Origin: Octopus vulgaris | Taxonomy: Eukaryota | Reading direction: 5' to 3' | NCBI GenBank assembly: GCA_951406725.2 | Contig: OX597829.1 | Location: 26,164,001-26,228,000, forward strand | DNA length: 64,000 nucleotides | In this document: positions 3,881 to 57,708 of the stretch, piece by piece | Layout: every line of letters begins with the position of its first letter | Position numbering within the stretch: the stretch's first letter is position 1 | Translations under genes and position numbers: made by a program | The notes under the pieces: model-generated | The model's input: the letters and a program-made list of their open reading frames with translations, nothing else | Databases searched by the model: none | What the model was told of the DNA's origin: nothing

Positions 3881-4961
3881 CCCTTTCATTACTATATTTC
3901 TGAACAAAATACACCCCTTATGTGTTTCAATTAATTTCTAACATAATCATAAATTTAGTCTGGTTTCATTAAACAACTATAACTTTTTTATTTATCAATA
4001 TATTAACGTGAATTTTGGAAGATAATTTAATGAAATGTTCTCAACCAATTCTATACTATAATTTTTGTCACAAAGTGACTAATAGCAGGTAGATACAGGT
4101 AAATTCAACAAAATATAAAATTATTAAAATTTTGTTCAAACATCGCTATAGAAAATGGGTTATTAGCTAATATTCAATTGGGTATACAACAAAATTTTAC
4201 GATAGAATTTGTTATTCTGGGTAACTTTCTGATACCCATAATAATATTTATGGCAAAATAGGTTTAAGGTTGTGGAAACCACTAGGTTGTGGGAAACCAC
4301 TAACTATCCTTTCTTTCGTTTTGTTTACATTTAGCGTAACGGTTCATTTCCGCCGTAATGATTTCAAATAGACTCATTCGAAAAAGTAAAAAGAAATAGT
4401 CTAAGGCTTTACTCTTCTGGGAAAGTCTGTGGCTTGGTCCAGTTTCTTCAGAAAAATCACCGAAAGAAACAGTTTTTAAATTTTCACTCCATTCAGGTGC
4501 CAATTCATTTTCTTTATCGCTGTCGGAGCTCTCGGATTCACTGTTTTCACTTTCGGAAAATGAAACATCAGATTCATTATCAAATACCACATGCTTTTTT
4601 TTTTCAGTCATAGAGTTAGATTTATGAAGGTCTTGAGTAGAAAATCCTTCGAATTCTGACTCGCTGCTTGATATAATGAAATTCGTATCCATTTTTTGTC
4701 AGAATTACAAATTTTGAAAACACAATAGGAACAAATTTCGGAAAAAAATCTCCCAAAATTCACGGAATTAAAATTACACTTCGATTTTTGTACAAAACTG
4801 TAGTTGAACTCTTTACGAAGTATAATAAGCATTTTCACGAATGTACTAAAGAGATTTGCTCTGATATTCTCATTTAAATATGAATAGGTAAATTCGGGTG
4901 GCTTTGGGTGGTTTGGTCACATTAACCAAAATTTTTTCCGGGCGGTTTGGTAACGAAAGGG
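3881..4961 (-). mobile_element. Internally deleted piggyBac transposon
   Basis: TTAA TSDs (3877-3880, 4962-4965); TIR ccctttcattac / gtaacgaaaggg; ORF 4300-4692 is an acidic piggyBac transposase N-terminus (GP...LDYFFLLF...MNRYA). Confidence 0.88.
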
Positions 4962-10292: not shown

Positions 10293-11632
10293 CATCATCA
10301 TCGTTTAACGTCCGCTTTCCGCGCTAGCACGGGTTGGACGGTTTGACCGGGTCTGGGAAGCCAGGGGCCGCTCCAGGCTCCAGTCTGAATCTGGCAGAGT
10401 TTCTACGGCTGGATGCCCTTCCTAACGCCAACCACTCCATGAGTGGATTGGGTGCTTTTTACATGCCACCTGCACAGGGGCCGGAGGGTCCGGCATCGTC
10501 ACGATCGGTTCGAGCATTTTAACGTGTCAGCGGCACGGGGGCAACGAGGTCCGGGGTACTTTGGGGATCGGGGTATTTTGGGGATCCAGGGTACTTTGGG
10601 GATCCGGGGTACTTTGGGGATCCGGGGTACTTAGAATGGGTAGGGGGTATGTGGAATTGCTGCAGAAAGCAGCCCGGGTCTTTGTAGTCACAGCATATCT
10701 CCAGAGATCTCGGTCCTTCGCCATTGCCTCAGTGAGGCCCAATGCTCTGAGGTCATGCTTGACCACCTCATCCCATGTCTTCCTGGGTCTACCTCTCCCC
10801 CTGATACCTTCAACTGTTTGGGAGTGGCACTTCTTCACACATCTCTCTTCATCCATCCGCAGCACATGACCATACCATCGCAAGCGTCGCTCTTGCACAC
10901 CACATCTGATGCTTCTTATATCCAGCATTTCTCTCAGGATACTTACACTCTGTTTTGCGTGCACACTGACACTACACATCCAGCGGATCATGCTAGCTTC
11001 ATTTCTTTCAAGTCTACGCATGTCTTCTGCAGTCACAGCCCATGTTTCATTACCGTGAAGCATGGCAGTTCGCACACATGCATCATACAATCTACCTTTT
11101 GCTCTGAGGGAGAGGCCTTTTGTTGCCAATAGGGGTAGGAGCTTTCTGAACTTTGCCCAGGCTATTCGTATTCTAGTGGTGATACTCTCTGTGCATCCAC
11201 CTCTGCTACTAACTTGGTCTCCCAGGTAGCGGAAACTATCAACTACTTCTAGTTTCTCTCCCTGGAGTGTGATGGAATCTGTTTTCTGAGTGTCTGTTGT
11301 GTCTATTGTCCCTGTGCATCTGCCGCACATGAAAGCTATCTTATCTGTTAATTTCCCTTTAATGTTGCTGCACCTCTTATGTGTCCATAACTTACATTGG
11401 GTGCATCTTATGGAGTTTCTACCTGTACCTTTCCTACAGGTTGAGCAGGGCCACCTACCCGAGGGGATGTGTGTTGAGTACCTCTTGCTGCTTACTAATA
11501 CTTTGGTCTTTGCTACATTTATTCTAAGGCCCTTTGATTCCAACCCTTGCTTCCATACCCGAAATTTCTCTTCTAGTTCCGGTAGTGATTCTGCTATGAG
11601 AGCTAGGTCATCGGCATAGAGGAGCTCCCAGG

Positions 11633-11637
<5 letters not shown>
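10293..11637 (-). mobile_element. 5'-truncated RTE LINE
   Basis: LLYADD, PHD finger, FRYLG, RLRWYGHV, RGRPRKTW; (GAT)n tail; TSD ggcatatat at 10284-10292 and 11633-11641. Confidence 0.93.
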
Positions 11638-11669
<32 letters not shown>

Positions 11670-21600: not shown

Positions 21601-22560
21601 AAGAAAGATTCACAAACTGAAAAGGTTGTTGCTAGCAAACTTAAATGAATTGTATGTAGCTTTCAAAACCAGTTACAATGACAAAATAGGATTTTCTAAA
21701 TTCTGTGAGTTACAACCTAAGTGGTGTGTAGCTGTGGGTCCTAAAGGTTCACATACAGTGCGTGTTTGTTAGTACCACCAAAATGCAAATTTGTTAGCTG
21801 CTGCATTACCAGTTGATGTCATTTACCATGAAGTGCTGTCTAAACTTGTCTGTAATGTACAAAGTAGAGACTGCAAGTTGCATGCCTGTGAACAGTGTCC
21901 TGGGAAAGGGGCATTACAAGAGTAACTCAATAGTCAGTTGGGTAGTCAAGAGTTTTATGAAGGTGACATGATTAAATATAAACAATGGGTGCACACCGAT
22001 AGAAAAACACTTGCATAACTTGAAGCTACTGCAGCAGATTTCATTGATATCAGTGTGAATCATTCTGTAAGCTTACACAGCACCACTTTATTGCAAAAGC
22101 GAAATCTGTGGCTTTGAATGCATTTAAAGAAAAGCTTCGCTATAATGAAGCCATCATATTACTTGATTTTGGAGAAAATTATAGCTTTATCATACAGGAT
22201 GCTGTGCAGGGGCATCATTGGGATAATTCCCAAGCTAAAGTGCATCCCTTTTTATTTTATGTCAAAGACTCCTCAACCTCTCATCTCAAATGTGTAAATA
22301 AGTGTGTCATGTCTGATTGCCTCAACAATGACACTGTGGCAGTTCAAGCTTTTACTAATCAAGTCCTGACTGCTATAAAATCAAAGTTTGAAGATCTAAC
22401 CAAAGTTATATACTTCAATGATGAGGCTGCAAGCCAATATGAAAATTTCAAAAATTTTGCCAACCTCTGTAGCCATTATAATCATGGTCTGTCTGCTGAA
22501 TGGCATTTTTTGCTACTAGCAAAAAATGAATGGCATTTTTACAAATTTCTTCCAGTTCCC
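18637..22560 (+). mobile_element. Degenerate DNA transposon, probably Sola2
   Basis: Left end gggtaattccatgtcaa. Frameshifted transposase at 21510-22520 with FSKFCELQPKWC, DFGENY, QDAVQGHHW, SDCLNND, AASQYENFKNF and AEWHF motifs. No right TIR seen. Confidence 0.65.
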
Positions 22561-24753
22561 ATCAACCAAATTCACACTCTAAGAAGAGTTTTCATTTATA
22601 TAATTAAAAAATGTTTCCTAGAGGTAACACAATCACTAAATAATGTAAGACATATATCAGTAGGTTATGTTGAAGAAGGAGGTATAATGAGATGATGTTT
22701 ATCTTTCCTCAAAACTACTTACATATTGTAAGCAAATTTTCATAAGTTTGTACTGAGAGGACTTACGCTCAATCAGTTGCTTCAACTATAAGATTGTTTC
22801 CCATTCTTAATATGACTGCATTAGACGCTAGGAAAATTTTAAAAGTAAAAAAAGTGTGCCTTATTCATTAGCAAATACAGTATGTGCTTTAATGGTGTAA
22901 ATAATTTCATCGTTCTTACAATTTCATTTTTTTTTTCAAATATAGGTCGAGCTGACCTATATATGCCTTTTTATTCTTAGGCTTTCGTTTCTCACGAATT
23001 ATCATCCAAGGGGTATAAACCTCGTCATGAGATTATTACTTGGCCATCCTCTTTACCACCTCTACCAGCACTTTTATCGTTGTCCTCACTGTCGGCATCA
23101 CTCTCATTATCATCACCAACACGTTATCAACTATCACTTGAAGTCAAGACAAGGAGCAATTATACACAAACTATATATAAATAAATATATATATATACAT
23201 ATATATATATATGTATGTGCTGGTTTTCTTTTTTCAGTTTCCGTTTACTAAATTCACTCACAAAGCTTTGCTCAGCCCAGAACAACTACTGTAGAAGACG
23301 TTTGTCCAAGGTACAGCATACGGGAGCTTAACCGAAACTCACATAGCTGGGAAGTGAACACCTAAACAAGACATCCATGCATGTAGTTGAGGATCATCTC
23401 CAGTTAAAAAAAAGAATGGAGAGAAAAAGCTTGCTTTGAGGGTATCTAACGCTTAGTATTTGAAATGTGGTCATGCAACGGGGTGCAAGTGAATGAAGAG
23501 ACCAGAATTTTTAAGAACCAAATTAAAAGTGAGATATTTAAATAAATAGGTCACAATGACATAATTATTAATAAAAAAGAAAAAATTAACATTTAAAAAA
23601 TTTAATATAACTTTTTAGTCTTTTACATGTTCCAGTCATTAGACTGTAGCCATATTGGGACATCGTCTTGAAGAATTTATTTAAAAAAACCAACCCTAGA
23701 ACTTCATCTTTTTTAAAACTGGTACTAATTCTATTGGTGTCTTTTGTCAAACCCCAAATTTAAATACATACATACACGCTTACATACATGCATATACATA
23801 CAAGGTGCTTCATTCAGTTACCATCTACCATATCCACTCAAGGCTTTGGCCAGCCCAGAGATATAGTAGAAGACACTTCCCAAGATGCCATGCAGAGGGA
23901 CTGAACTCATGTGGTTGGGAAGTAAACTTCTTACCACAACAATGTAAAGTGGCACAGTTTTAGGGTCTACAAGTATAAAGTAAAACTAAACAGAAATCAG
24001 AAAAGAAGCTAGAAATATTAAGTAGAAAACTTTTCATAATTTCATGTAAGACGTATAATAATATAACAAGTCTGGATAATAAAAATAGTTTAAATTTCAA
24101 ACCATCCATTAACCTATACCTAATGCTCCTCTGCATGAAATTCTTAGTATTTATATGAGATATAAACATTTCCATCTAAAATTTATATTTATAGGTCTAG
24201 TGACAAAGGGAATAAAAAAATACAAAAGCCAAATCAGTTCATTCAGTTCTAAGGACCACCTTTGAGATTTCTAAATTGCAGTTTAAATACAAATAATAAA
24301 TAAGATTTTAGCTTTGATTAAAATATTAAACATATGGATAAAAGTTTCAAAATGTCTTTCATATTTATAAAAGAAATTGTTGAACTCTTAACTATGATAC
24401 AGCCTCAGACTTTCTGTATTCAAATTAAAATCTTGGTCAAAGATTTATCAGTTGGTTAACACCAAAATAACATGCACGCATGCATACATACAAACAAACA
24501 CACACATAAGCACAACTGGTTTCTTTGAGTTTCTATCTACCAAATCTGCTCACAGAGTTTACTCAGCCAGGGACTATTGTAGAAGGCACTGAACCAAACA
24601 AGCTTCTTAATCCCACAGACATGTCTGTGACTATCTGAATTTATGCTCCAACAAAAGTACCACTTGGCTACTTTTAAAAAACGTCCTGCAAAAGAAGTCA
24701 CCAGCTTGGCTCTTTCTCCAAGCTCGAAGGCAAAATGATAAATATATACTTAC

Positions 24754-25952: not shown

Positions 25953-28011
25953 CTGCAATATAAAAATATCAATTGAGTTAGTATTTTAATACAAACTATT
26001 TTTCAAAAATGTCAAGCTGTGAAAAAAAATATGGGAAAAGTGTAGGTGTGTGTCTGTGAGAGAGAGAGAGAGTGAGATTGATATGATTTATTATATCAAA
26101 GTACTAATAAGACTCCCATTATGTAGAAATCTATTATACTCTAGGATAAGTAAAGTGCATGTGATAGAGATGAAGAGACAGAAGGAAAAAATTCAAATGA
26201 TCTATTATATTAACCCTTTAGAATTTAATCTGGCCAAAATATTCTACCTTATGTTCAAAAACGTCAGATCTGGTCCTTCACACCTACATTAAACATAATT
26301 CTGGAAACAAACTACCATATCATCAAAATCTTGAAGCTACAAGGTAAGTCATAATTAAAACAAAAAAACGTGAACAAATAAGCATCACATTTAACAGAAT
26401 AATCTGAATGCTAGAGAGTTACAGTAATAATGGTAGATTTCTGTAGTGTAAAAAATCTGTTAAGCTATAAGCCAAACAAGGTACATGTGATAGAGAGACT
26501 CAATCGAAAACTAGCACATGCACACACACACACACACACACAGAGGGAATAATTGAAAAAAGAACAGAGGAGAAATATGAATTAGGATTAAAGGGAGGAG
26601 AATCAGAAATAACAAGAAGCATTATCTTAGTAGGAAAGGAATGAAATTAACGCAAGAAATTGAGCAAGGTGTCATACGATGAACAATGAATGTGAAGCTA
26701 GTAAGGGAAAAAAATTGTTTTATCAAGAAAAGAAACAAAATATGAACGACAGATTATAGTTAAGAATATTTTGCGCAAACAAGAATGAGAAAAATAAATA
26801 GAAGAGCTAACATTAGCAAAGAGAAAAGACAGGATTTCCTAATAATTAATAAAGAATTATGAAGGAAATGAAAAGATGGTATTAGCAAGTGAAGAAAGTG
26901 GGGAAATGTTTATGGCTGATAGTGTACCACAAAATGGGTGGTGTAATTTCACTGATACTGCAAGTGTATGTGTGTATTATACATCTACAAAGGCAGTGTG
27001 CTTAATAAGCCTATTTCCCAAACATGTGGTCTCAGGTTCGTTCAGTCCTAATGCTTGGTACCTTCGGTGTCTTCTGCTATAGTCTAGAGCTCACCAAAAC
27101 CTTGTGAGTGGATTTGGTACAAAGAAACTGAAATAAGCCTGTCTTGTGTGTCTGTGCATGTGTATAAAAGAAGTTGAAATGCATTAGGATTTTTGTTTAT
27201 CATTATCATCATTTAACGTCCGATTTGACTGAGGACTGGCAAACCAGATGGCTGCACCAGGCTCCAATCTTGATCTAGCAAAATTTCTACAGCTGGATGC
27301 CCTTCCTAATGCCAACCACTCTGAGAGTGTAGTGAGTGCTTTTATGTGCCACCGGCACAAGGGCCAGTCAGGTAGTACTGGCAACGGTCATGGAAAAATC
27401 ATGTTTTTTTTTTGTTAGTTTTTCAATTTTTAAAGACTTAACCGGTATCTCTGATTTTCAAAAGTTGAGATACAAAGATGTGAAGCTTTAAAAATCTTTA
27501 AATAGAGAATCTAAATGAATCCTAGTGCATATTCAACTTCTTTTTTCTATATTTCTACCCATGTGCAATAAAATAACTTTGTTTTTATATATAAATAAAT
27601 ATACATACACACATAAATATGTGTATGTCTAACTTTTACTTGCTTCAGTTGTTAGACTACATCTTATGCTGGGGCACTGCCTTGAAGAATTTTAGTTGAA
27701 CAAATCAACCTCACTACTTACTTTTTGTATGCTCAGTACTTATTTTATTAGTACAGAGGCATGAACACACCAACACTGGTTGTCAAGCAGTGGTGGAGGA
27801 TAAATACAAACACGAAAACACACATCTATGTGTGTTGCCAAGGAAATTGAAGTGTGTATTGGCTACTATGACCAACAATAGTCACAAGTATCAATTAGAA
27901 TGCATGTTTGTCACGTCTGCATCTTAAGAATGTTCATGTATTTTCAATGTATTAATCATAATTTTTCATACATTGATTGTGAGGTTTTTTTAATAACAGT
28001 CTATTATGACT

Positions 28012-28300
28012 ATTATTTACATTTGACGTATATTAGTCATCTTATGGCGTAGTGTTTAAGACCACGGGCTACTAACCCTAAGCTTCCAGGTTCGATTCCA
28101 GGCAGTGACCTGAATAATAATAACATCGAAAAATACTTTAGGAATGAGAACCCAGGTTCGAAATTTCTCCAAGACACCTGATGAAGGCTGGAGGGTATAT
28201 CAGCCGAAATGTTGTGTTAACAACAAACAAGATGAGGACAAATATCCACCAAATGTAAATAATGTACATAATTCCTCATCTTTTAAATATACAACTGTAT
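28012..28300 (+). mobile_element. tRNA-headed, hammerhead-containing SINE-like element with 5' inverted piece
   Basis: TSD tattatgact (28002-28011 and 28301-28310); inverted copy of 3' region at 28012-28043; A box 28045-28056; B box GGTTCGATTCC 28089-28099; hammerhead 28173-28218. Confidence 0.8.
28173..28218 (+). ncRNA. Minimal type I hammerhead ribozyme motif
   Basis: gacac CTGATGA a ggctgg-loop-tcagcc GAAA tg TT gtgtt; stem III AATGTT is one transition from the palindrome AACGTT. Confidence 0.7.
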
Positions 28301-28563
28301 TATTATGACTACTGTTTGATGATTACGTTTTCATTATTTTTTTAAAATTTATAATGTATTATCATTTATATTTTCCTACAATTTTATTATTCTATGGTTT
28401 TATCTTATATTTTAATTTTAATCTATATATTTATTTATTGCATTGTTCATCTGTTGTATACTTTAAATTATTAAACTTGCTTATAATAAATGTAGCTTTG
28501 TTGTATTGATGTGCTTACATGAGAGAAAAAAAGTGATCATAACACAAATTCAAATTAACTTAC

Positions 28564-37194: not shown

Positions 37195-40050
37195 ATCATC
37201 ATCATCATTTAGCGTCTGCTTTCTATGCTGACAAGGATTAGATGGTTTGATCTTGTGTCAGATGATGAAAGGCTATAGTGAGACACAGAGAGAGAGAGAA
37301 ACAGGTGTCTTGCTAAAGAGGATATATAAGGTTACTTGGCCAGAGAGAGAGAGAGAGAGTGGGGGGGGAATCAACAATGAAGACAGAAACAAGTGTGCTG
37401 CTGCAAGGAGATACATGGTCAACTAACCTGAGGGAGGTGCAGGAGGAGGAGAGAGAGTGGGAGAGAGCAGGATATAGATGGTGACAAGTGCCAGGGTTGG
37501 AAGGTCGTAATATAAGTGGCAGGATATTGTAAAAGCAGCAGGATTAGTGAGTGTGGAGGGGTGGGAAAGTGAGTGGTGAAAACCTGAGTATATTTAGAGT
37601 GGGATGGGGAAGGCAGATAGCAATGATACAGAGAAACAGGACCTTGAGGACAGGATTTGGGAGTGAGAGACAGGCATAGTGTATGAAGGAGGAAATGTAG
37701 ATTGGTTTTATTGGAGTAGGGTGTGTGAAAAGTTTCCTTGTTATGTGTGGGTGGAAGACACAGGTCAGGGGCTAGCGGATAGAATGATATGATACAGTGA
37801 GACAGAGTCAAGAGGACAGGATCGGGGAGTTGGAGGTAAGCATAGTGCATGAAATGGAAATGTGAGGAAGAGATGTAGAGATATAGTTTGGTTTGTTGTG
37901 GTAGGGTGTGCGAGAAGCTTCCTTGTTAAGTGTGGGTGCAGCACACAACACTTCTAGAACTCAGTTTCGCTGAAGAGGCCAGGTCTTCTCATAAACCTTA
38001 TATCTTGGGCAGCTGTCATTTCCTCTGTGAGGCCCAACATCCTGAGATTGGTCCTTATCACTTCATCATACATTTTCTTGGATCTCCCTTGTCAGCAGGT
38101 ACCATCCACTCAGTGACAGGCACTTCTTTATGCAGCTGTACTCATTCATATGCATCATATGTCCAAACCAACATAGTCTTCTCTCTTGCATACACCAACT
38201 TTTCTCTTGATACATTTGCACTTTGTTGTACATGTGTGCTGATGTTGCACATCCAATGGAGTATACTGCCTTCATTTCTCTCCAGTCTACATGTCTTCTG
38301 CATTCAGAGCCCATGTCTCACTACCATGGAGTATAGCCGTTCATACACAAGCATCATATAGTCTACCTTTCACTCTGAGAGAGAGCCCTTTTGTTGCCAA
38401 CAGAGGTAATAGCCCCCTGAACTTCCTTCGCCCTATTCTTAATCTAGAAACAATACTTTCAGAGCATTTTCCACCATTGCTAATTTTGTCACCTAAGGAA
38501 CAGAAACTATCTACAAGAGATTTGGTCACCTAGGTAACAGAAACTATCTCAAGAGAGCCTCCTAGAGAATCTAAGTTCCATGTGTTTTCAATGCTTATTA
38601 CTCCTGCACATCTATCACATACAAATTATCTGTTAATCTACCTGCAATTCCACTGCACTGCCTATGTGTCCATAGTTTACACAGGGTGCAGTGAATGGAA
38701 TTTCTTCCAACTCCTTTCCTACATACTGAGCAGGGCCATTTACCCAACAGAAAGAGTGTTTTATCTTCTTTCTTACTCACAACTTTGGTCTTCACAAGGT
38801 TAACTTTAAGGCTCTTTGATTCCAGGTCTTGATTCCATACCTAGAATTTCTTCTCCAGTTCTGCTAAAGATTCTACAATAAGAGCAAGGTCATCAGCATA
38901 TAGCAGCTCCCATGAGCAGTCAGTTTTGAATTCTACTGTTATGGCTTGGAGGACTATAATGAATAAGAGTAGGCTGAGAACTGAGCCTTGGTGAACCCCT
39001 ACCTGTACAATAAATTCATCACTGTATTCATGGCTGACTCTCACCTTACTGACAGCATCACTGTACAAAGCTTGTACAGCTCTAGCAAGCCACTCCTCTA
39101 CTCCAAACTTCCTTAGAGACCACCATATAACAGAGTGGGAAACTGTCAAAAGCTTTCTCCAGGTCAACGAAAGCTAAGTACAATGGCTTACTTTTGGCCA
39201 AGTACTTTTCCTGAATCTGTCTCACTAGGAAGATGGCATCTGTAGTACTCTTCCCAGGTACAAAACAAAACTGCATCACATCTAGTTTAATTCTATTCAT
39301 AATCAATTGAACCTTCTCAGTAACTTTCATGACTTCTAGCAGTTTAATACTTCTGTAGTTGTTCCAATCTAAAGCAGCACCTTTACTCTTGTAGTGGGTA
39401 ACTATAATGCTATAACACCAGTCATTGGGGATGGAGCCTTCCTGAATAAACTGATTAACTATAAGGGCGACTAAGCTGTATCCTACACTACCAGAAATTT
39501 TAATCATCTCGGCAGTGATTTCTGATGGCTCAGGGGCTTTCCTTGTCTTCATGTCCTTATTTGCCTCATCTATTATACTGCTATCAATTCTGATGGCAGG
39601 TCCCTCAATTGGTTCGATATTTGGTAGACTCTCCTTCTCTTATTCATTTTCCACATTTAGTAACCTTTCACAATGACACTTTTGTGCATCTTTCTTCCCT
39701 GAGTTACTAAGTACAAGCATACCATTGTCCATTCGCACACTTTTGTCACCCATCACATCTCTTTTCTCTCTGATACGCTACTTTGCAATTCTGAACACCT
39801 CATGCCTCTGATCCTCATGTCGTAGGACATATGCAAATCTCTTACCTTCGGCTACTCCTTTTGCTATGTATACCTGATACCTAGCTGCCCTTTTGGCTAC
39901 CTGATATAATTCTTTGCTTCCACTTTTTTCCAGTCTTTCCAGGCATGCCTTTTTGCTTTCATAGTACTGTCTCCACCACCATATTACCCTTGGTCTAGCT
40001 GGGACTATGCACAAACCACAGATTTCCTTAGTAGCCCTCAGTACAAACAT
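37195..40050 (-). mobile_element. Degenerate RTE LINE, subfamily with long 3' UTR (UTR also at ~34615-35690)
   Basis: ORF fragments with AFVDLEKAFD, GVHQGSVLS, LYADD and WPCSVC; catcatcat tail at ~37195. Confidence 0.9.
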
Positions 40051-40102
40051 ATGTATGTGTGTATGTATATATATGTATATATATATATATGTATATATAT
40101 AT

Positions 40103-43021
40103 CTAAATGCCAAAACCTTCCCAGGCGAAGAATGTACCTAAATGTCAAAACCTTCCCAGGCAAAGAATGTACCCGCAACATAGACTGGTAGTTAGTGACT
40201 TTAGGATCAGGACTAAGAGGAAAACCAGAAGACGACCAACATGGAGAAGAAGGATCTGGAAGCTTAAAGATCCTGTGAATGAACAGAGATTTAGGGACAT
40301 GTTACTTGAAGCCTTTGACGAAGTAGAATGGGATAGAGTATCACATGGAGTAGAAGGCAACTGGACGTTTCTAAGGGACAACCTGCTGAGAGCCACTGAC
40401 CAGATCTGTGGCTGGTGAAAAGTGCCCTCTCGTCCCAAGGTAACGTGGTGGTGGAACAATGTTGTAGACAGGGCTATTAGAGAAAAGAGACAGGCTTGGA
40501 AGGAGTGGAAGAACGGTGGTAGCAGGGAATTGTATCAGACTACCAAAAGGGAAGCTAGGAGACAGGTCTATCTAGCCATAGGGGAAGCAGATAAGAAAAA
40601 ATTTGCCAATGTTCTGCACCGTGAGGACCAAAGACTGGGGTGTTTCGTGTTGCAAGACAGTGTGTGAGAGAGAATTGTGATGTGGTAGGAGAGAAATGTG
40701 TTCGCATGGAAGATGGTTCACTTGCGCTAAATGAGGCTGCAAAGAGAGAGGTTTGGAGACGCCACTATGAAAGGTTGCTGAATAAAGAAAATGAATGGGA
40801 TAAAGAGAGTCTGCCGAATGTCGACCCAACAGAGGGACCAGCTATCCGAGTTGACAGTTCCTTGGTAGTTAAGGCAATTAGAAGCATGAAGACAGGGAAA
40901 GCCCCAGGCCCATCAGGAATCACTGCAGAGATGCTCAAAATATCTGGCAGTGTCGGCTATAGCCTAGTCACCCATATAGTTAATCAGGTGATACACGAAG
41001 GAGTCATACCCAATGACTGGTGTAGCAGCATAATAGTCAACTGCTACAAAGGTAAAGGTGATGCTTTAGATACAAATAATTACAGAGGTATCAAGCTGTT
41101 GGATCAGGTAATGAAGGTTACAGAGAGGGTCATAGCCCAACTAATTAGAGAGAGAGTTAGTTTAGATGAGATGTAGTTTGGGTTCGTGCCAGGCAAAAGT
41201 ACCACTGATGCTATATTCCTGGTAAGGCAGCTGCAGGAGAAATACCTAGCCAAAGATAAGCCCCTGTACCTGGCTTTTGTTGACATGGAGAAAGCCTTCG
41301 ACAGGGTCCCCCGATCCCTTATCTGGTGGTCCATGAGGAAACTAGGGATAGATGAATGGTTAGTGAGAGCTGTGCGAGCCATGAACAGGGACGCTGCTAG
41401 TAAGGTAAGGGTTAGCAATGAGTACAGTGAAGAATTCCGGGTAGAGGTAGGGGTCCACCAAGGCTCAGTCCTCAGCCCCCTCCTATTTATCATAGTCCTC
41501 CAGGCAATAACAGGAATTCAAGACAGGATGCCCCTGGGAGCTCCTCTATGCTGATGACCTTGCTCTAATTGCTGAGTTACTATCAGAACTCGAGGAGAAG
41601 TTTCAGGTGTGGAAGCAAGGATTAGAATCGAAGGGCCTTAGAATCAATCTAGCTAAAACCAAAGTCCTAATAAGTAGGAAGGTAGACAAATCACAAACGC
41701 CTTCAGGTAGATGGCCCTGCTCGATCTGTAGAAAAGGTGTAGGTAGAAACTCTATAAGATGCACCAAGTGTAAGCTATGGACACATAAGAGGTGCAGTAA
41801 TGTCAAAGGAAGGCTAACTAGGAAGACAGTTTTTGTATGTGGCAGATGCTCAGGAGCAATAAACACTGAAAATGCTCTGAGACCAACTTCTGCCACATTC
41901 CAGGGAGAAAAACTAGAAGTAGTTGATAGCTTCCGTTACCTAGGTAACCAAGTCAGTAGCGGGGGCGGGTGTGCTGAAAGTGTAACTGCTAGAGTAAGAA
42001 TAGCTTGGGCAAAGTTCAGAGAGCTCTTACCTCTGCTGGTGACAAAAGGCCTCTCACTCAGAGTAAAAGGCAGACTGTATGATGCATGTGTACGAACAGC
42101 CATGCTACATGGCAGTGAAACATGGGCCGTGACTGCTGAGGATATGCGTAAGCTCGTAAGAAATGAAGCCAGAATGCTCCGATGGATGTGTAATGTCAGT
42201 GTTCATACTCGACAGAGTGTAAGTACCTTGAGAGAAAAGCTGGACCTAAGAAGCATCAGTTGTGGTGTGCAAGAGAGACGTTTGCGCTGGTATGGTCATG
42301 TGGCGAGAATGGATGAAGATAGTTGTGTGAAAAAGTGCCACACCCTAGCGGTTGAGGCGACCTACAGAAGAGGCAGACCCAGGAAAACCTGGGACGAGGT
42401 GGTGAAGCATGACCTTCGAACTTTAGGTCTCACTGAGGAAATGACCAGAGACTGAAACCTTTGGAAGTATGCTGTGCGTGAGAAGACCTGGCAGGACAAG
42501 TGAGACCATAACCTGTGGCCTCTACCTGGGATGTAGCCAGTCCACTTATGCATACCTTTCCTTCTTGGGACACAAAACTCTACTTGTGAAGACCTGTTGA
42601 GGCAAGTGAGAATCGAAATTGATCAACATCAATGGAAATTGCAGCTGTGATACCAGTGCTGGTGGCACGTAAGTGAACCATCCGAACGTGGCCGTTGCCA
42701 GCGCCGCCCCGACTGGCCTCATGCCGGTGGCACGTAAAAAGCACCATCCATTCGTGGCCGTTGTCAGCCTCGCCTGGCCCCCATGCCGGTGGCACGTAAA
42801 AAGCACCATCTAATCGTGGCCGTTTGCCAGCCTCGTCTAGCACGTAAAAAGCACCCACTACACTCACGGAGTGGTTGGCGTTAGGAAGGGCATCCAGCCG
42901 TAGAAATATTGCCAGATCAGACAGGGCCTGGTGCAGCCTTCTGGCTTCCCAGACCCCAGTTGAACCGTCCAACCGATGCTAGCATGGAAAGCGGACGCTA
43001 AACGATGATGATGATGATGAT
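40103..43021 (+). mobile_element. 5'-truncated RTE LINE (endonuclease C-terminus, RT, PHD, 3' UTR)
   Basis: QHRLVV, KAPGPSG, YRGIKLL, DMEKAFD, QGSVLSP and YADD motifs; a few stops and frameshifts; tandem-repeat 3' UTR; (GAT)n tail. Confidence 0.95.
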
Positions 43022-50520: not shown

Positions 50521-51395
50521 CATCATCATCATCATCGTTTAATGTCCGCTTTCCATGCTAGCATGGGTTGGAAGATGACTAAGGGCAGGCAAACCAGATG
50601 GCTGCACCAGGCTCCAATCTTGATCTGGCAGAGTTTCTACAGCTGGATGCCCTTCCTAACGCCAACCACTCCGAGAGTGTAGGGGGTTCTTTTACGTGCC
50701 ACTGGCACGGAGGCCAATCAGGCGGTACTAGCAATGACCTTGCTCGAATGTTTTTTCACATGCCAGTAAGGCGACACTAGTAATGATCACGCTCAAATGG
50801 TGCCTTTTATGTGCCACTGGCACGGAAGCCGGCGAGCCACTCTGTTAATGATCACGCTCATATGGTGCTCTCTGTGCCCTGCTAGCACAGATGCCAGTCA
50901 TTGAATTTGATTTCGATTTCACTTGCCTCAATAGGTCTTCACAAGCAAAGTTTAGTGTCCAAAGAAGGAAAGGTATGCATAAGTGGGCTGGTTACGCCCC
51001 TGCCATAGGCCACAAGGTTATAGTCTAATTTGGCTTGCCGGGTCTTCTCAAGCACAGCATATTTCTAAAAGTCTCAGTCACTAGTCATTTCCTCAGTGGG
51101 GCCTAAAGTTTGAAGGTTGTGCTTCACCACTTCATCCCAGGTCTTCCTGGATCTGCCTCTTCCACAGGTTCCCTCAACCGCTAGGGTGTGGCACTTTTTC
51201 ACACAGCTATCCTCATCCATTCTCGTCACATGACCATACCAGCGCAGTCGTCTCTCTTGCACACCACATCTAATGCTTCTTAGGTCCAACTTTTCTCTCA
51301 AGGTACTTACACTCTGTCAAGTATGCACACTGACTTTACACATCCATCGGAGCAATTTTTTTATCTGCTTCCCCTCTGGCTAAATAAACCTGCCT
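50520..51395 (-). mobile_element. RTE LINE 3' end
   Basis: ORF 51074-51301 nearly matches the C-terminus of the 41607-42455 ORF; (CAT)n tail. Confidence 0.9.
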
Positions 51396-51477
51396 ACACA
51401 CACACACACACACATATATATATGTGCATATATATATATACACCCATATACACACACACACACATATATATATATAT

Positions 51478-51990
51478 ATGCAAGCAGGAATACCAAGCAT
51501 GTTTGCACAAAGATGTATGAGATGGCTTGGGCATGTTAGCCGTATGAAAGATGGCAGAATCCCCAAGGATATACTCTATGGAGAGCTTGCTAGGGGTACT
51601 AGGTCTGTGGGTAGACCGTTCTTACGTTACAAGAATGTTTGCAAAAGGGACATGAAGGCCTGCAACATCAATATTAGCGGTTGGGAGGCAGTTGCCGGCA
51701 ACCGTGGAGACTGGCGACGTACCGTAAAAGAGGGAATACAAAGGAGTGACAGAGAGAGAGAGGAGAAATGGAAAGACAAGAAAAGACGTCAACAAGAAAC
51801 TATGATATTACAACCAGCCAGGAACAGTCTTTGTTACATTTGCGGTACCTGCCAGAGGGAGTGTTTGTCCAGGATAGGACTACACAGCCACAGCAGGAAA
51901 TGTATCAGGACATGAAATGTAAAAGCCGGATTAGACTACTTTATGTGCAACTCCATTGTCTCCCGAGACAAAAAGGATGCCAACAATATA
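51478..51990 (+). mobile_element. RTE-BovB-type LINE 3' end with C-terminal zinc finger
   Basis: RWLGHVSRM..RIPKDILYGEL..G.R..GRP.LRYK and CGTC...RIGLHSHSRKC; short 3' UTR ending ccaacaa. Confidence 0.85.
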
Positions 51991-57003: not shown

Positions 57004-57708
57004 ATTACATGGTAAAATGCAAGCAAGAAAAACATATTCTTAAGATTATAAACCTGGAAAATTACAGAACAAGTTATTACACTTGGAAAAGTTCAAGACA
57101 ACTTGCTACATCTGGTAAAGTATAGAACAAGAACATTTTTCAGTTCTACATTTGAGAGATGAGGAATTATGTACATTATTTACATTTGACGGACAACAAA
57201 CAAGATGAGGACAAATATCCGTCAAATGTAAATAATGTAAGAAAATTTTTACTTAAAATATTGCAGCTAAGGATAAAATTTCAAATAAAATATTAGCTTT
57301 TATTAAAACTAAAAATTTTATTACAAGTTATTACTTCTATTTGTTATCACTTGTTACTTCTATTAAAAATTAAAAATAAATCAAAATATTTTTTGCACTT
57401 TAAAAAATTCATTTCTTAATTATCAATTAATTAGAAATTTGAAAATAGGTTATAAAAAATAATTGGCTCTCATCTTTTAAGTATTCTAGTGTACCAATAT
57501 TTTAACAAAATGATGGTACCTTTTTTTAATTGTAATATTACTTTATAAATTAAAATCAAATAATTTTCTATATTCAAATTTTATCCTTTGCTTTACCAGA
57601 TGTAATAACTTGTCCTGAACTTTTCCAAGTGTAATAACTTGTCCTGTACTTTTCCAGATTTATAATCTTAAGAATATTATTTCTCTTGCTCACATTTTCC
57701 CATGTAAT
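57004..57708. repeat. Older inverted repeat, ~115 bp arms
   Basis: 57004-57120 versus 57591-57708; hosts the 57141 insertion. Confidence 0.75.
57141..57238 (-). mobile_element. 5'-truncated copy of the 28012-28300 family, inverted piece plus tail
   Basis: Shares caacaaacaagatgaggacaaatatcc..caaatgtaaataatgtacataattcctcatc; near-TSD aagaacattttt / aagaaaattttt (57129-57140, 57239-57250). Confidence 0.8.

What the first reader, a model, noticed from the sequence alone, without database searches (positions are those of the whole stretch)
28002..28310. Complete tRNA-headed retroelement with a hammerhead ribozyme and Penelope-type inverted end: candidate PLE-mobilised Pol III SINE/retrozyme
Seen: 10-bp TSD (tattatgact), then a 32-nt inverted copy of the 3' region, tRNA A and B boxes, a minimal type I hammerhead (CUGAUGA/GAAA/UU, stem I gacac/gtgtt), and a tail ending aactgtat with no poly(A) or (GAT)n. 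Established: Penelope-like elements carry minimal hammerheads with palindromic stem III and leave inverted pLTRs that lack a short 3' tail. Typical SINEs use LINE 3' ends instead; schistosome SM-alpha is a tRNA-related hammerhead repeat precedent. Inference: a Pol III-transcribed, self-cleaving SINE that uses Penelope rather than LINE machinery.
Basis: partly seen in the sequence, partly recalled or inferred. Interest (0 to 1): 0.88.

Follow-up and report, generated by a model that had tools for sequence, protein, structure and literature searches.

The report
Penelope retroelement that spawns SINE-like copies

Summary
The anatomy is real: TSD, 32-nt inverted arm lacking a 37-nt tail, tRNA A/B boxes, minimal hammerhead. 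It is a high-copy family (4,195 exact tail matches). But it is not a free-standing SINE with a borrowed tail. The whole unit, tRNA head included, is the terminal repeat (pLTR) of an autonomous Penelope-like element (835-codon RT + GIY-YIG ORF): 73 of 81 ORF ends run into the head, and hammerhead and tail are the ORF's first 52 codons. Yet a separate short template exists: 41 of 55 insertions reaching the head stop there (6.5% expected), and the two arms of an insertion are both short or both long (replicated, P=0.001), against simple stalling. Starts sit at tRNA nucleotide 1 to about 6 nt upstream, as a Pol III start would. Pol III use is untested. Hammerhead cutting does not shape the ends (not replicated; no covariation), so 'self-cleaving retrozyme' is unsupported. 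Ten literature searches found no Penelope element with a tRNA head. This scan noted the same family before on other DNA (e1-9583789, e1-9538922, e1-9549991); the two-template evidence is tested here. Verdict: new variant of a known kind.

The parts
28002..28011 (+). Left target-site duplication (10-11 nt)
   Evidence: family TSDs >=8 nt in 30 of 47 inverted-type insertions against 0.56 in shuffled pairs
28012..28043 (-). Inverted arm: copy of 28229-28263, starting 37 nt short of the 3' end (second Penelope-type start site)
   Evidence: 47 of 64 inversions start 28-38 nt from the end
28043..28112 (+). tRNA-derived head, first 5 nt missing; A box 28045-28055, B box 28089-28099; likely Pol III internal promoter
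   Evidence: family head aligns from nt 1 of a genomic tRNA-Arg(TCG), score 64 against 36+-4 in shuffles, 0 of 500 as high
28113..28123 (+). (AAT)n tract, length highly variable among copies
28144..28300 (+). First 52 codons of the parent PLE ORF (AUG at 28144), overlapping hammerhead and tail
   Evidence: frame continues across tail-to-ORF junctions in L155, L284, L288, L016, L356; homolog P0003 has the same N-terminal peptide
28173..28218 (+). Minimal type I hammerhead, predicted cut 28213/28214; stem III palindrome damaged in this copy
28229..28300 (+). 3' hairpin holding the two inferred reverse-transcription start sites; last 37 nt are the Penelope 'tail'; no poly(A)
   Evidence: fold z -2.8
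28301..28310 (+). Right target-site duplication
57141..57239 (.). Second, very short head-to-head insertion of the same family (tail-bearing arm on minus strand, tail-less arm on plus)

Best explanation
The element is a decayed insertion of the terminal repeat (pLTR) of an autonomous Penelope-like retrotransposon whose repeat begins with a tRNA-derived segment, and that segment likely acts as an internal Pol III promoter making a short RNA that the element's own RT/GIY-YIG protein would copy into the genome. Shown: the parent unit (about 2.65 kb, 835-codon ORF) has head, (AAT)n, hammerhead and tail directly after its stop codon; insertions have Penelope geometry (fixed 3' end, inverted arm lacking about 28-38 nt, 8-15 nt TSD); most insertions that reach the head stop there; the two arms of one insertion share their length class. 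Inferred: (1) two template RNAs, a short one starting about 278-271 nt before the 3' end and long ones that include the ORF; (2) Pol III makes the short one; (3) the protein nicks both strands and starts reverse transcription at two internal sites about 35 nt apart, as shown in vitro for the Anolis element PAc, giving one arm with and one without the tail; (4) the RNA is used uncut, the hammerhead being carried along as part of the pLTR/ORF start; (5) the short 5' palindromes arise when the finished cDNA end folds back on a 4-bp hairpin at the RNA start. It works like a SINE served by Penelope machinery, but it is born inside its partner rather than being a separate chimera.
For: Parent: RT motifs and C-terminal GIY-YIG-type domain directly upstream of the head; natural 569-aa open frame in L241 continuous with head and hammerhead, RVT_1 E 2.7e-6, C-terminus matches the GIY-YIG region of P0069 at E 1e-15; near-full copies L155, L284, L288. 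Linkage: 73 of 81 distinct ORF ends have the head within 140 nt, 4 more a partly deleted head, none of the 8 shown a different UTR. Short template: in the first 90 tail-anchored insertions on contig C1, 41 of 55 that reach -250 end in -295..-250, 6.5% expected from the hazard nearer the 3' end; 53 of 60 new head-anchored copies do not continue into the ORF, 2 of them keeping some UTR; calibrated counts about 16,000 head arms against about 2,100 ORF-stop arms 40 nt apart. Arm pairing: partner of an ORF-bearing arm passes the head in 17 of 22 distinct loci, partner of a head-ending arm stops there in 21 of 23 (two double-counted loci removed); replicated on new loci, 10 of 11 against 7 of 8, P=0.0012. 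Start coincides with tRNA nt 1, consensus-type A and B boxes, and no TTTT in the majority unit. D. virilis Penelope keeps its internal promoter at the same place, in the pLTR (PMC2377424, passages); two RT start sites define the tail and cutting is not needed (PMC11167929).
Against: No direct evidence of Pol III use. Three RNA-seq runs of one study from a related organism show both strands equally, 77-80% of laid reads running on into unlike sequence and no start pile-up at the head, which looks like passive read-through; such libraries can lose short Pol III RNAs. Rfam and ARAGORN do not recognise the head. 13 of the 90 insertions could be followed only to the (AAT)n tract and were not at risk in the hazard count. 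Samples come from one contig and are biased to young copies with exact motifs. 5' ends scatter over -290..-250 by BLAST ends, partly from fold-back sequence. 5 of 22 long-arm loci do have a partner ending at the head. 12 of 89 head copies have neither linker nor hammerhead downstream.
Confidence: 0.7

Rival explanations
1. Ordinary solo pLTRs: the short RNA exists but comes from a Pol II promoter in the pLTR, as in D. virilis Penelope; the tRNA piece is a relic of an old insertion that happens to lie at the start.
For: PLEs normally start transcription in the pLTR and leave many truncated single repeats (PMC2377424 passages; PMC4209133). RNA-seq shows no discrete transcript. The two-template result does not by itself name the polymerase.
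Against: The start lies at tRNA nt 1 to about 6 nt upstream, 7-13 nt before an intact A box, with an intact B box; no TTTT on the sense strand of the majority unit.
Confidence: 0.16
2. Independent PLE-dependent SINE: short master copies amplify on their own, and the ORF-linked form arose when the PLE captured the SINE or the reverse.
For: Short copies outnumber ORF-linked ones about 7 to 1; a copy starting at -278 keeps both boxes and could be transcribed again; tRNA head plus (AAT)n looks like a simple SINE, and several head copies end in that tract.
Against: No diagnostic substitutions between 95 short and 64 ORF-linked arms, shared variants at similar frequency (the short set was partly chosen by likeness to the window); many short copies keep the 6 nt of parent UTR before the head; PAc needs RNA reaching past the tail into the ORF (PMC11167929), which solo copies lack.
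Confidence: 0.09
3. One long RNA only: reverse transcription stalls or folds back at the hairpin in front of the tRNA-like segment, making a truncation hot spot.
For: A small hairpin sits at -288..-262; perfect fold-backs of 8 nt or more in 11 of 53 head-start copies; L281 breaks at -273/-271 on a long template.
Against: On templates that demonstrably include the ORF the second arm passes the head in 17 of 22 and 10 of 11 loci, while overall only 16 of 67 arms in the tail- and hammerhead-anchored samples pass.
Confidence: 0.04
4. Retrozyme: the unit is cut out by its hammerhead and propagates as monomer or circle.
For: Hammerhead core fully intact in 102 of 277 arms; 7 of 80 short arms start at -86..-82 next to the cut site (P=0.048, window chosen after looking); a few insertions jump from the head back into the ORF start.
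Against: Pre-set re-test gave 2 of 26 (P=0.52); copies run head-to-tail across the uncut site and are not permuted at it; no tandem arrays of the short unit in 90 mapped insertions; 0-2 compensatory changes per pair.
Confidence: 0.01

Closest known systems
EN+ Penelope/Poseidon-type PLEs: D. virilis Penelope (PMC2377424, passages) and Anolis PAc (PMC11167929, parts 1-2 of 4)
   Same: Single RT + C-terminal GIY-YIG ORF, pLTR with minimal hammerhead overlapping the ORF start, 30-40 nt tail, inverted 5' arm, tandem junctions, promoter position in the pLTR.
   Different: The pLTR opens with a tRNA-derived A/B-box segment instead of the Inr/DPE-type promoter described for D. virilis, and head-start copies far outnumber ORF-bearing ones.
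tRNA-derived SINEs (definition from PMC10886601 and PMC4758252, passages)
   Same: tRNA head with A and B boxes, about 280 nt, non-coding, TSDs, high copy number, 3' part identical to the partner's.
   Different: Partner is a PLE, not a LINE; no poly(A) or repeat tail; Penelope-type inverted arm; the autonomous partner itself carries the head.
TRIMp3: Cassandra, Helenus, Ajax (PMC10886601, passages)
   Same: Small-RNA-derived Pol III promoter placed inside the terminal repeat of a retroelement that is not a LINE derivative.
   Different: Those are non-autonomous LTR elements, and the paper argues that their autonomous partners are unlikely to share such repeats; here a PLE, and the autonomous element shares the whole repeat.
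Schistosome Sm-alpha / Sj-alpha (review PMC6765202, passages; primary papers not read)
   Same: SINE-like, apparently Pol III-transcribed repeat with a hammerhead.
   Different: Described as tandem units released by a canonical hammerhead; no parent PLE named in the passages seen. Here dispersed, uncut, with an identified parent.
Non-LTR retrozymes and non-autonomous PLE derivatives (bioRxiv 10.64898/2026.07.22.740005 parts 1-3 of 5; PMC7229834 and PMC8557442 passages, MRC1)
   Same: Non-coding, pLTR-derived, hammerhead-bearing, likely moved by PLE enzymes.
   Different: Retrozymes are tandem repeats giving circles; no tRNA head is mentioned in what I read.
Octopus SINEs OK, OR1, OR2 (Ohshima and Okada 1994; not held, seen only as citations in PMC4758252 and PMC9223172)
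   Same: tRNA-derived retroposons of the animal group that earlier scan notes suggest for this genome; a tRNA-Arg origin of OR1/OR2 is recalled, from no call.
   Different: OR2 is cited as a CORE SINE. Identity with OK or OR1 could not be tested, so the short form may already have a name.

Membership tests
EN+ Penelope-like element (parent) | Single ORF with PLE-type RT | tested here: met
   835-codon majority ORF; natural 569-aa frame, RVT_1 E 2.7e-6, just under the cut-off; 2,923 homologs at E<=1e-20 among 7,999 scored
EN+ Penelope-like element (parent) | C-terminal GIY-YIG endonuclease | tested here: met
   No direct Pfam hit on L241's C-terminus, but it aligns to the above-cut-off GIY-YIG stretch of P0069, 34% over 118 aa, E 1e-15
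EN+ Penelope-like element (parent) | pLTR by partial tandem, with minimal type I hammerhead | tested here: met
   tail-to-ORF-start junctions in 12 locus rows, 10 distinct; hammerhead fold
EN+ Penelope-like element (parent) | Inverted 5' arm and 30-40 nt one-sided tail, TSD | tested here: met
   64 of 90 with inversion, 47 of 64 starting -28..-38; TSD 30 of 47, one a TA-repeat match; 0 of 15 non-inverted insertions
Penelope/Poseidon clade | RT phylogeny with named clade members | not tested
   No named reference sequences at hand; domain order and ORF start upstream of the cut site resemble PAc
tRNA-derived SINE (short form) | 5' head derived from tRNA with A and B boxes | tested here: met
   (0 of 500 shuffles; only 25 distinct tRNA genes of 6 amino acids compared, so the parent tRNA is uncertain); not detected by Rfam or ARAGORN
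tRNA-derived SINE (short form) | Transcribed by Pol III from that head | not testable with these tools
   5' ends pile up at the head; RNA-seq uninformative
tRNA-derived SINE (short form) | Mobilised by a LINE through a shared 3' end with poly(A) or repeat tail | tested here: not met
   3' end and insertion geometry are those of a PLE
tRNA-derived SINE (short form) | Lineage separate from the autonomous partner | tested here: inconclusive
   no diagnostic sites, 95 short against 64 long arms, biased sampling, no tree built
Non-LTR retrozyme | Tandem head-to-tail units each with a hammerhead | tested here: not met
   dispersed single or head-to-head insertions in the 90 mapped
Non-LTR retrozyme | Unit ends set by self-cleavage; circular RNA | tested here: not met
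   ends lie 86 nt downstream and about 190 nt upstream of the cut site; excess at the site not replicated; circles not testable
TRIMp3 | Two LTRs, PBS and PPT, 4-5 bp TSD | tested here: not met
   head-to-head arms and 8-15 nt TSDs

The most novel reading that the evidence does not exclude
The autonomous, protein-coding Penelope element has replaced its Pol II promoter with a captured tRNA gene and is itself transcribed by Pol III: one start at the head of the upstream repeat, no TTTT terminator in the 2.65-kb majority unit (0 runs against 2.85 expected in synonymous shuffles, P=0.028; GGGG control 0 against 1.06), with reverse transcription from the first pLTR-ORF junction giving the SINE-like short copies and from the next junction the long ones. 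It would be a retrotransposon and its SINE in one transcription unit.
Probability: 0.2. Interest if true: 0.88.

Novelty: new variant of a known kind. Interest (0 to 1): 0.62.

Why it matters
SINEs are defined as passengers of LINEs, and Pol III-promoter repeats are otherwise known in non-autonomous LTR elements. A tRNA-headed short element integrated by Penelope machinery would add a third partner class, and because the head sits inside the autonomous element it shows a direct way for a SINE to be born: capture a tRNA piece in the terminal repeat. The family has on the order of 10,000 or more insertions, so annotation pipelines would split it into a 'SINE' and a 'Penelope'. The thousands of two-armed insertions also let one test, from sequence alone, how the two Penelope start sites use one template class. 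If the ORF-bearing RNA were also a Pol III product, it would run against the stated expectation that autonomous retroelements need Pol II.

Tried and rejected
Rfam over the whole window gave only microsatellite-driven miRNA matches below gathering score; no tRNA or hammerhead family at E<=10 on the element or on copy L207. Covariation: 0-2 compensatory changes per pair in 277 arms, as expected for one recent family, so uninformative. 5' ends at the hammerhead cut: nominal in the first look, not replicated. Sister PLE without the head: searching the genome with the 68%-identical P0001 returned only this family in the 30 loci fetched; a relaxed hammerhead pattern gave 99 of 100 listed hits from this family by eye; so the order of events (who captured the head) is open. 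A 38-nt GT-AG stretch in the tail was considered as an intron and dropped: the frame is open from an upstream AUG and the homolog P0003 encodes that stretch. Apparent better B-box retention and lower divergence in short copies are confounded by how the sets were chosen and are not used. Sequencing runs: no RNA holder listed on record; three raw RNA runs showed no discrete start. PDB sequence search gave nothing significant (best E 0.014). Look-up of earlier findings by sequence gave nothing. Literature searches listed no paper on a tRNA-headed PLE or a PLE-mobilised SINE; Repbase, Dfam, SINEBase entries, Ohshima and Okada 1994, Lunse et al. 2017 (not held) and the bioRxiv supplements could not be seen and may already hold this family.

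Full report
Observation. The copy is worn: it lacks the first 5 nt of the head, has a G>T change in the A box, AUGU instead of the family's palindromic ACGU in stem III, and a TTTT at 28281-28284. ARAGORN and Rfam call neither a tRNA nor a hammerhead. A second, very short insertion of the family lies at 57141-57239.

A large family. The own genome (2.8 Gb, animal) gives 4,708 first-look candidates, the 40 scored 84-92% alike. Exact 28-mers occur 4,195 times (tail), 4,646 (hammerhead), 1,815 (head, four degenerate letters) and 641 (ORF stop and UTR); reversed controls 0. Calibrated with exact-match rates in loci fetched on other anchors, this is about 11,600 tail arms, 27,000 hammerhead arms, 16,000 head arms and 2,100 ORF-stop arms (rough, biased to young copies). 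Non-CpG divergence from the majority is about 4.5-5.6%. Contigs of four public runs, labelled as four organisms, lay on the region by the thousand, with listed loose ends at the place that maps to the head start, and one contig spans the ORF stop into the head.

The parent is an autonomous Penelope-like element, and it carries the head. Three of the first 30 loci had a GIY-YIG-like reading frame ending about 30 nt before the head. Following it upstream gave RT motifs and a unit of about 2.65 kb. L241 holds a natural 569-aa open frame continuous with head and hammerhead; it hits RVT_1 at E 2.7e-6, has 2,923 homologs at E<=1e-20 among 7,999 scored, and its C-terminus aligns with the GIY-YIG stretch of P0069 at E 1e-15. 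Of 81 distinct ORF ends, 73 continue into the head, 4 into a partly deleted head and 4 break off or are deleted. Conversely 72 of 89 head-anchored copies have hammerhead or tail downstream, 5 more the linker, 12 neither. The majority ORF is 835 codons and starts at an AUG 156 nt before the 3' end, so hammerhead and tail are its first 52 codons; the full-length homolog P0003 (55% identical) has the same N-terminal peptide. Tail-to-ORF-start junctions occur in 10 distinct loci. So the finding is the pLTR of this PLE.

Integration is Penelope-type. In the first 90 tail-anchored insertions on contig C1, chosen only by an exact tail match, 64 have an inverted arm and in 47 of these it starts 28-38 nt short of the 3' end (an imperfect 9-nt repeat blurs the exact site). 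TSDs of 8 nt or more flank 30 of those 47, against 0.56 in shuffled pairs; 0 of 15 non-inverted insertions show one. This matches the inverted copy and 30-40 nt tail of PLEs (PMC8557442, passages) and the two internal RT start sites of Anolis PAc, which define the tail and work on uncut RNA (PMC11167929, parts 1-2 of 4). Here the two sites fall at about +120 and +156 of the ORF; PAc's first lies at +111-118.

The head is tRNA-derived. Against 25 distinct tRNA genes of this genome (6 amino acids only), the family head aligns end to end with a tRNA-Arg(TCG), tRNA nucleotide 1 falling at -272; score 64 against 36+-4 for shuffles (0 of 500 as high) and at most 40 for 55 other windows of the element. 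A and B boxes fit the eukaryotic consensus, which I recall from general knowledge.

A separate short template exists. Of the 90 insertions, 55 reach -250 and 41 of these end in -295..-250, where 6.5% are expected from the loss rate nearer the 3' end; 13 of the 90 could be followed only to the (AAT)n tract. Among head-anchored copies 23 of 30 and 53 of 60 do not continue into the ORF. Stalling on one long RNA would stop each arm independently. It does not: the partner of an ORF-bearing arm passes the head in 17 of 22 distinct loci, the partner of a head-ending arm stops there in 21 of 23 (after removing two double-counted loci; short fold-backs under 45 nt and arms that end before -250 left out). 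On 100 newly fetched loci the figures were 10 of 11 and 7 of 8, P=0.0012, one long-long pair in the head set left out of the table. Many short copies keep the 6 nt in front of the head and show perfect fold-back palindromes (8 nt or more in 11 of 53), which fits an RNA starting near -278 whose cDNA end primes on itself (inference). Short and ORF-linked arms (95 and 64) show no diagnostic differences.

Mechanism. Most likely the tRNA piece is an internal Pol III promoter at the place where D. virilis Penelope keeps its internal Pol II-type promoter, in the 3' UTR that doubles as the next copy's 5' UTR (PMC2377424, passages). The head-start RNA runs uncut through hammerhead and tail; the element's protein starts reverse transcription at its two sites and lays down a tail-bearing and a tail-less arm head to head. 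Pol III use is inferred from the position of the ends. RNA-seq of three runs (one study, related organism, about 6% of each read) shows both strands equally and no start at the head, that is read-through of embedded copies. The sense strand of the majority unit has no TTTT (0 against 2.85 expected, P=0.028; GGGG 0 against 1.06; coverage 2-15 over the first 500 nt), a weak hint that Pol III could read the whole unit.

The hammerhead. It is a standard PLE minimal hammerhead with palindromic stem III in the family (PMC4209133, parts 1-2 of 4); core fully intact in 102 of 277 arms, no covariation. An excess of arms starting at the cut site (7 of 80, P=0.048, window chosen after looking) did not replicate (2 of 26, P=0.52). 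Nothing here shows that cutting shapes the element.

Comparison. The parent meets the structural tests for an EN+ PLE; clade not tested by tree. The short form works like a SINE but fails the LINE-partner test and is not shown to be a separate lineage. It is not a retrozyme (bioRxiv 10.64898/2026.07.22.740005, parts 1-3 of 5; PMC7229834 and PMC7761336, passages). The nearest conceptual precedents are TRIMp3 elements, where the author expects autonomous partners not to share the Pol III repeat (PMC10886601, passages), and schistosome Sm-alpha (PMC6765202, passages). Passages of PMC13282606 (main text and its supplement), PMC4758252, PMC6685494 and PMC9223172 did not describe it. Ten searches listed no tRNA-headed PLE; Repbase, Dfam, SINEBase entries, Ohshima and Okada 1994, Lunse et al. 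2017 and bioRxiv supplements were not seen. Earlier notes of this scan describe what appears to be the same family on other DNA; I saw them after my own analysis and did not compare their sequences.

Verdict. Real feature; new variant of a known kind; interest 0.62. The bolder reading, a Pol III-transcribed autonomous retrotransposon, is not excluded (0.2).

Noticed in passing
L364, L174, L370, L076, L130: Template jumps in which a copy ending at or short of the head is joined to sequence from the first 30-330 nt of the ORF; fits head-start RNAs that run a few hundred nt into the next unit, or end-to-end jumping on one RNA. Four of the five were found by selecting for that junction.
   Followed up: partly
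L352, L361, L367, L399, L405, L409: Head copies that end in the (AAT)n tract without linker or hammerhead; either breaks at the microsatellite or a minimal tRNA-(AAT)n SINE form.
   Followed up: no
L356 932-1810: Tandem copy: ORF end, whole pLTR with head, then at least 1.2 kb of the next ORF; the arrangement a source locus would need.
   Followed up: partly
L189/L190/L191, L199/L201, L352/L353: Near-identical insertions with shared flanks on contig C1, probably segmental duplications.
   Followed up: no
window 10527-11669 (-), 39082-42455, 51388-51915 (+): Reading frames resembling RT and C-terminal parts of RTE-type LINEs (family name recalled, not tested).
   Followed up: no
window 4300-4698 (-) and 22048-22695 (+): Reading frames resembling DNA-transposon remnants (resemblance recalled, not tested).
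   Followed up: no
window 54270 and 63642 (+): Other CTGATGA...GAAA motifs with possible hairpins between them; may be decayed hammerheads of other families or chance.
   Followed up: no
window 28152-28166: A second B-box-like stretch sharing 10 nt with the real B box (D9), lying inside the first codons of the parent ORF.
   Followed up: no
G000:C1:14963825-14963859 (-): The one listed hit of the relaxed hammerhead pattern with a different stem II; possibly another PLE family.
   Followed up: no
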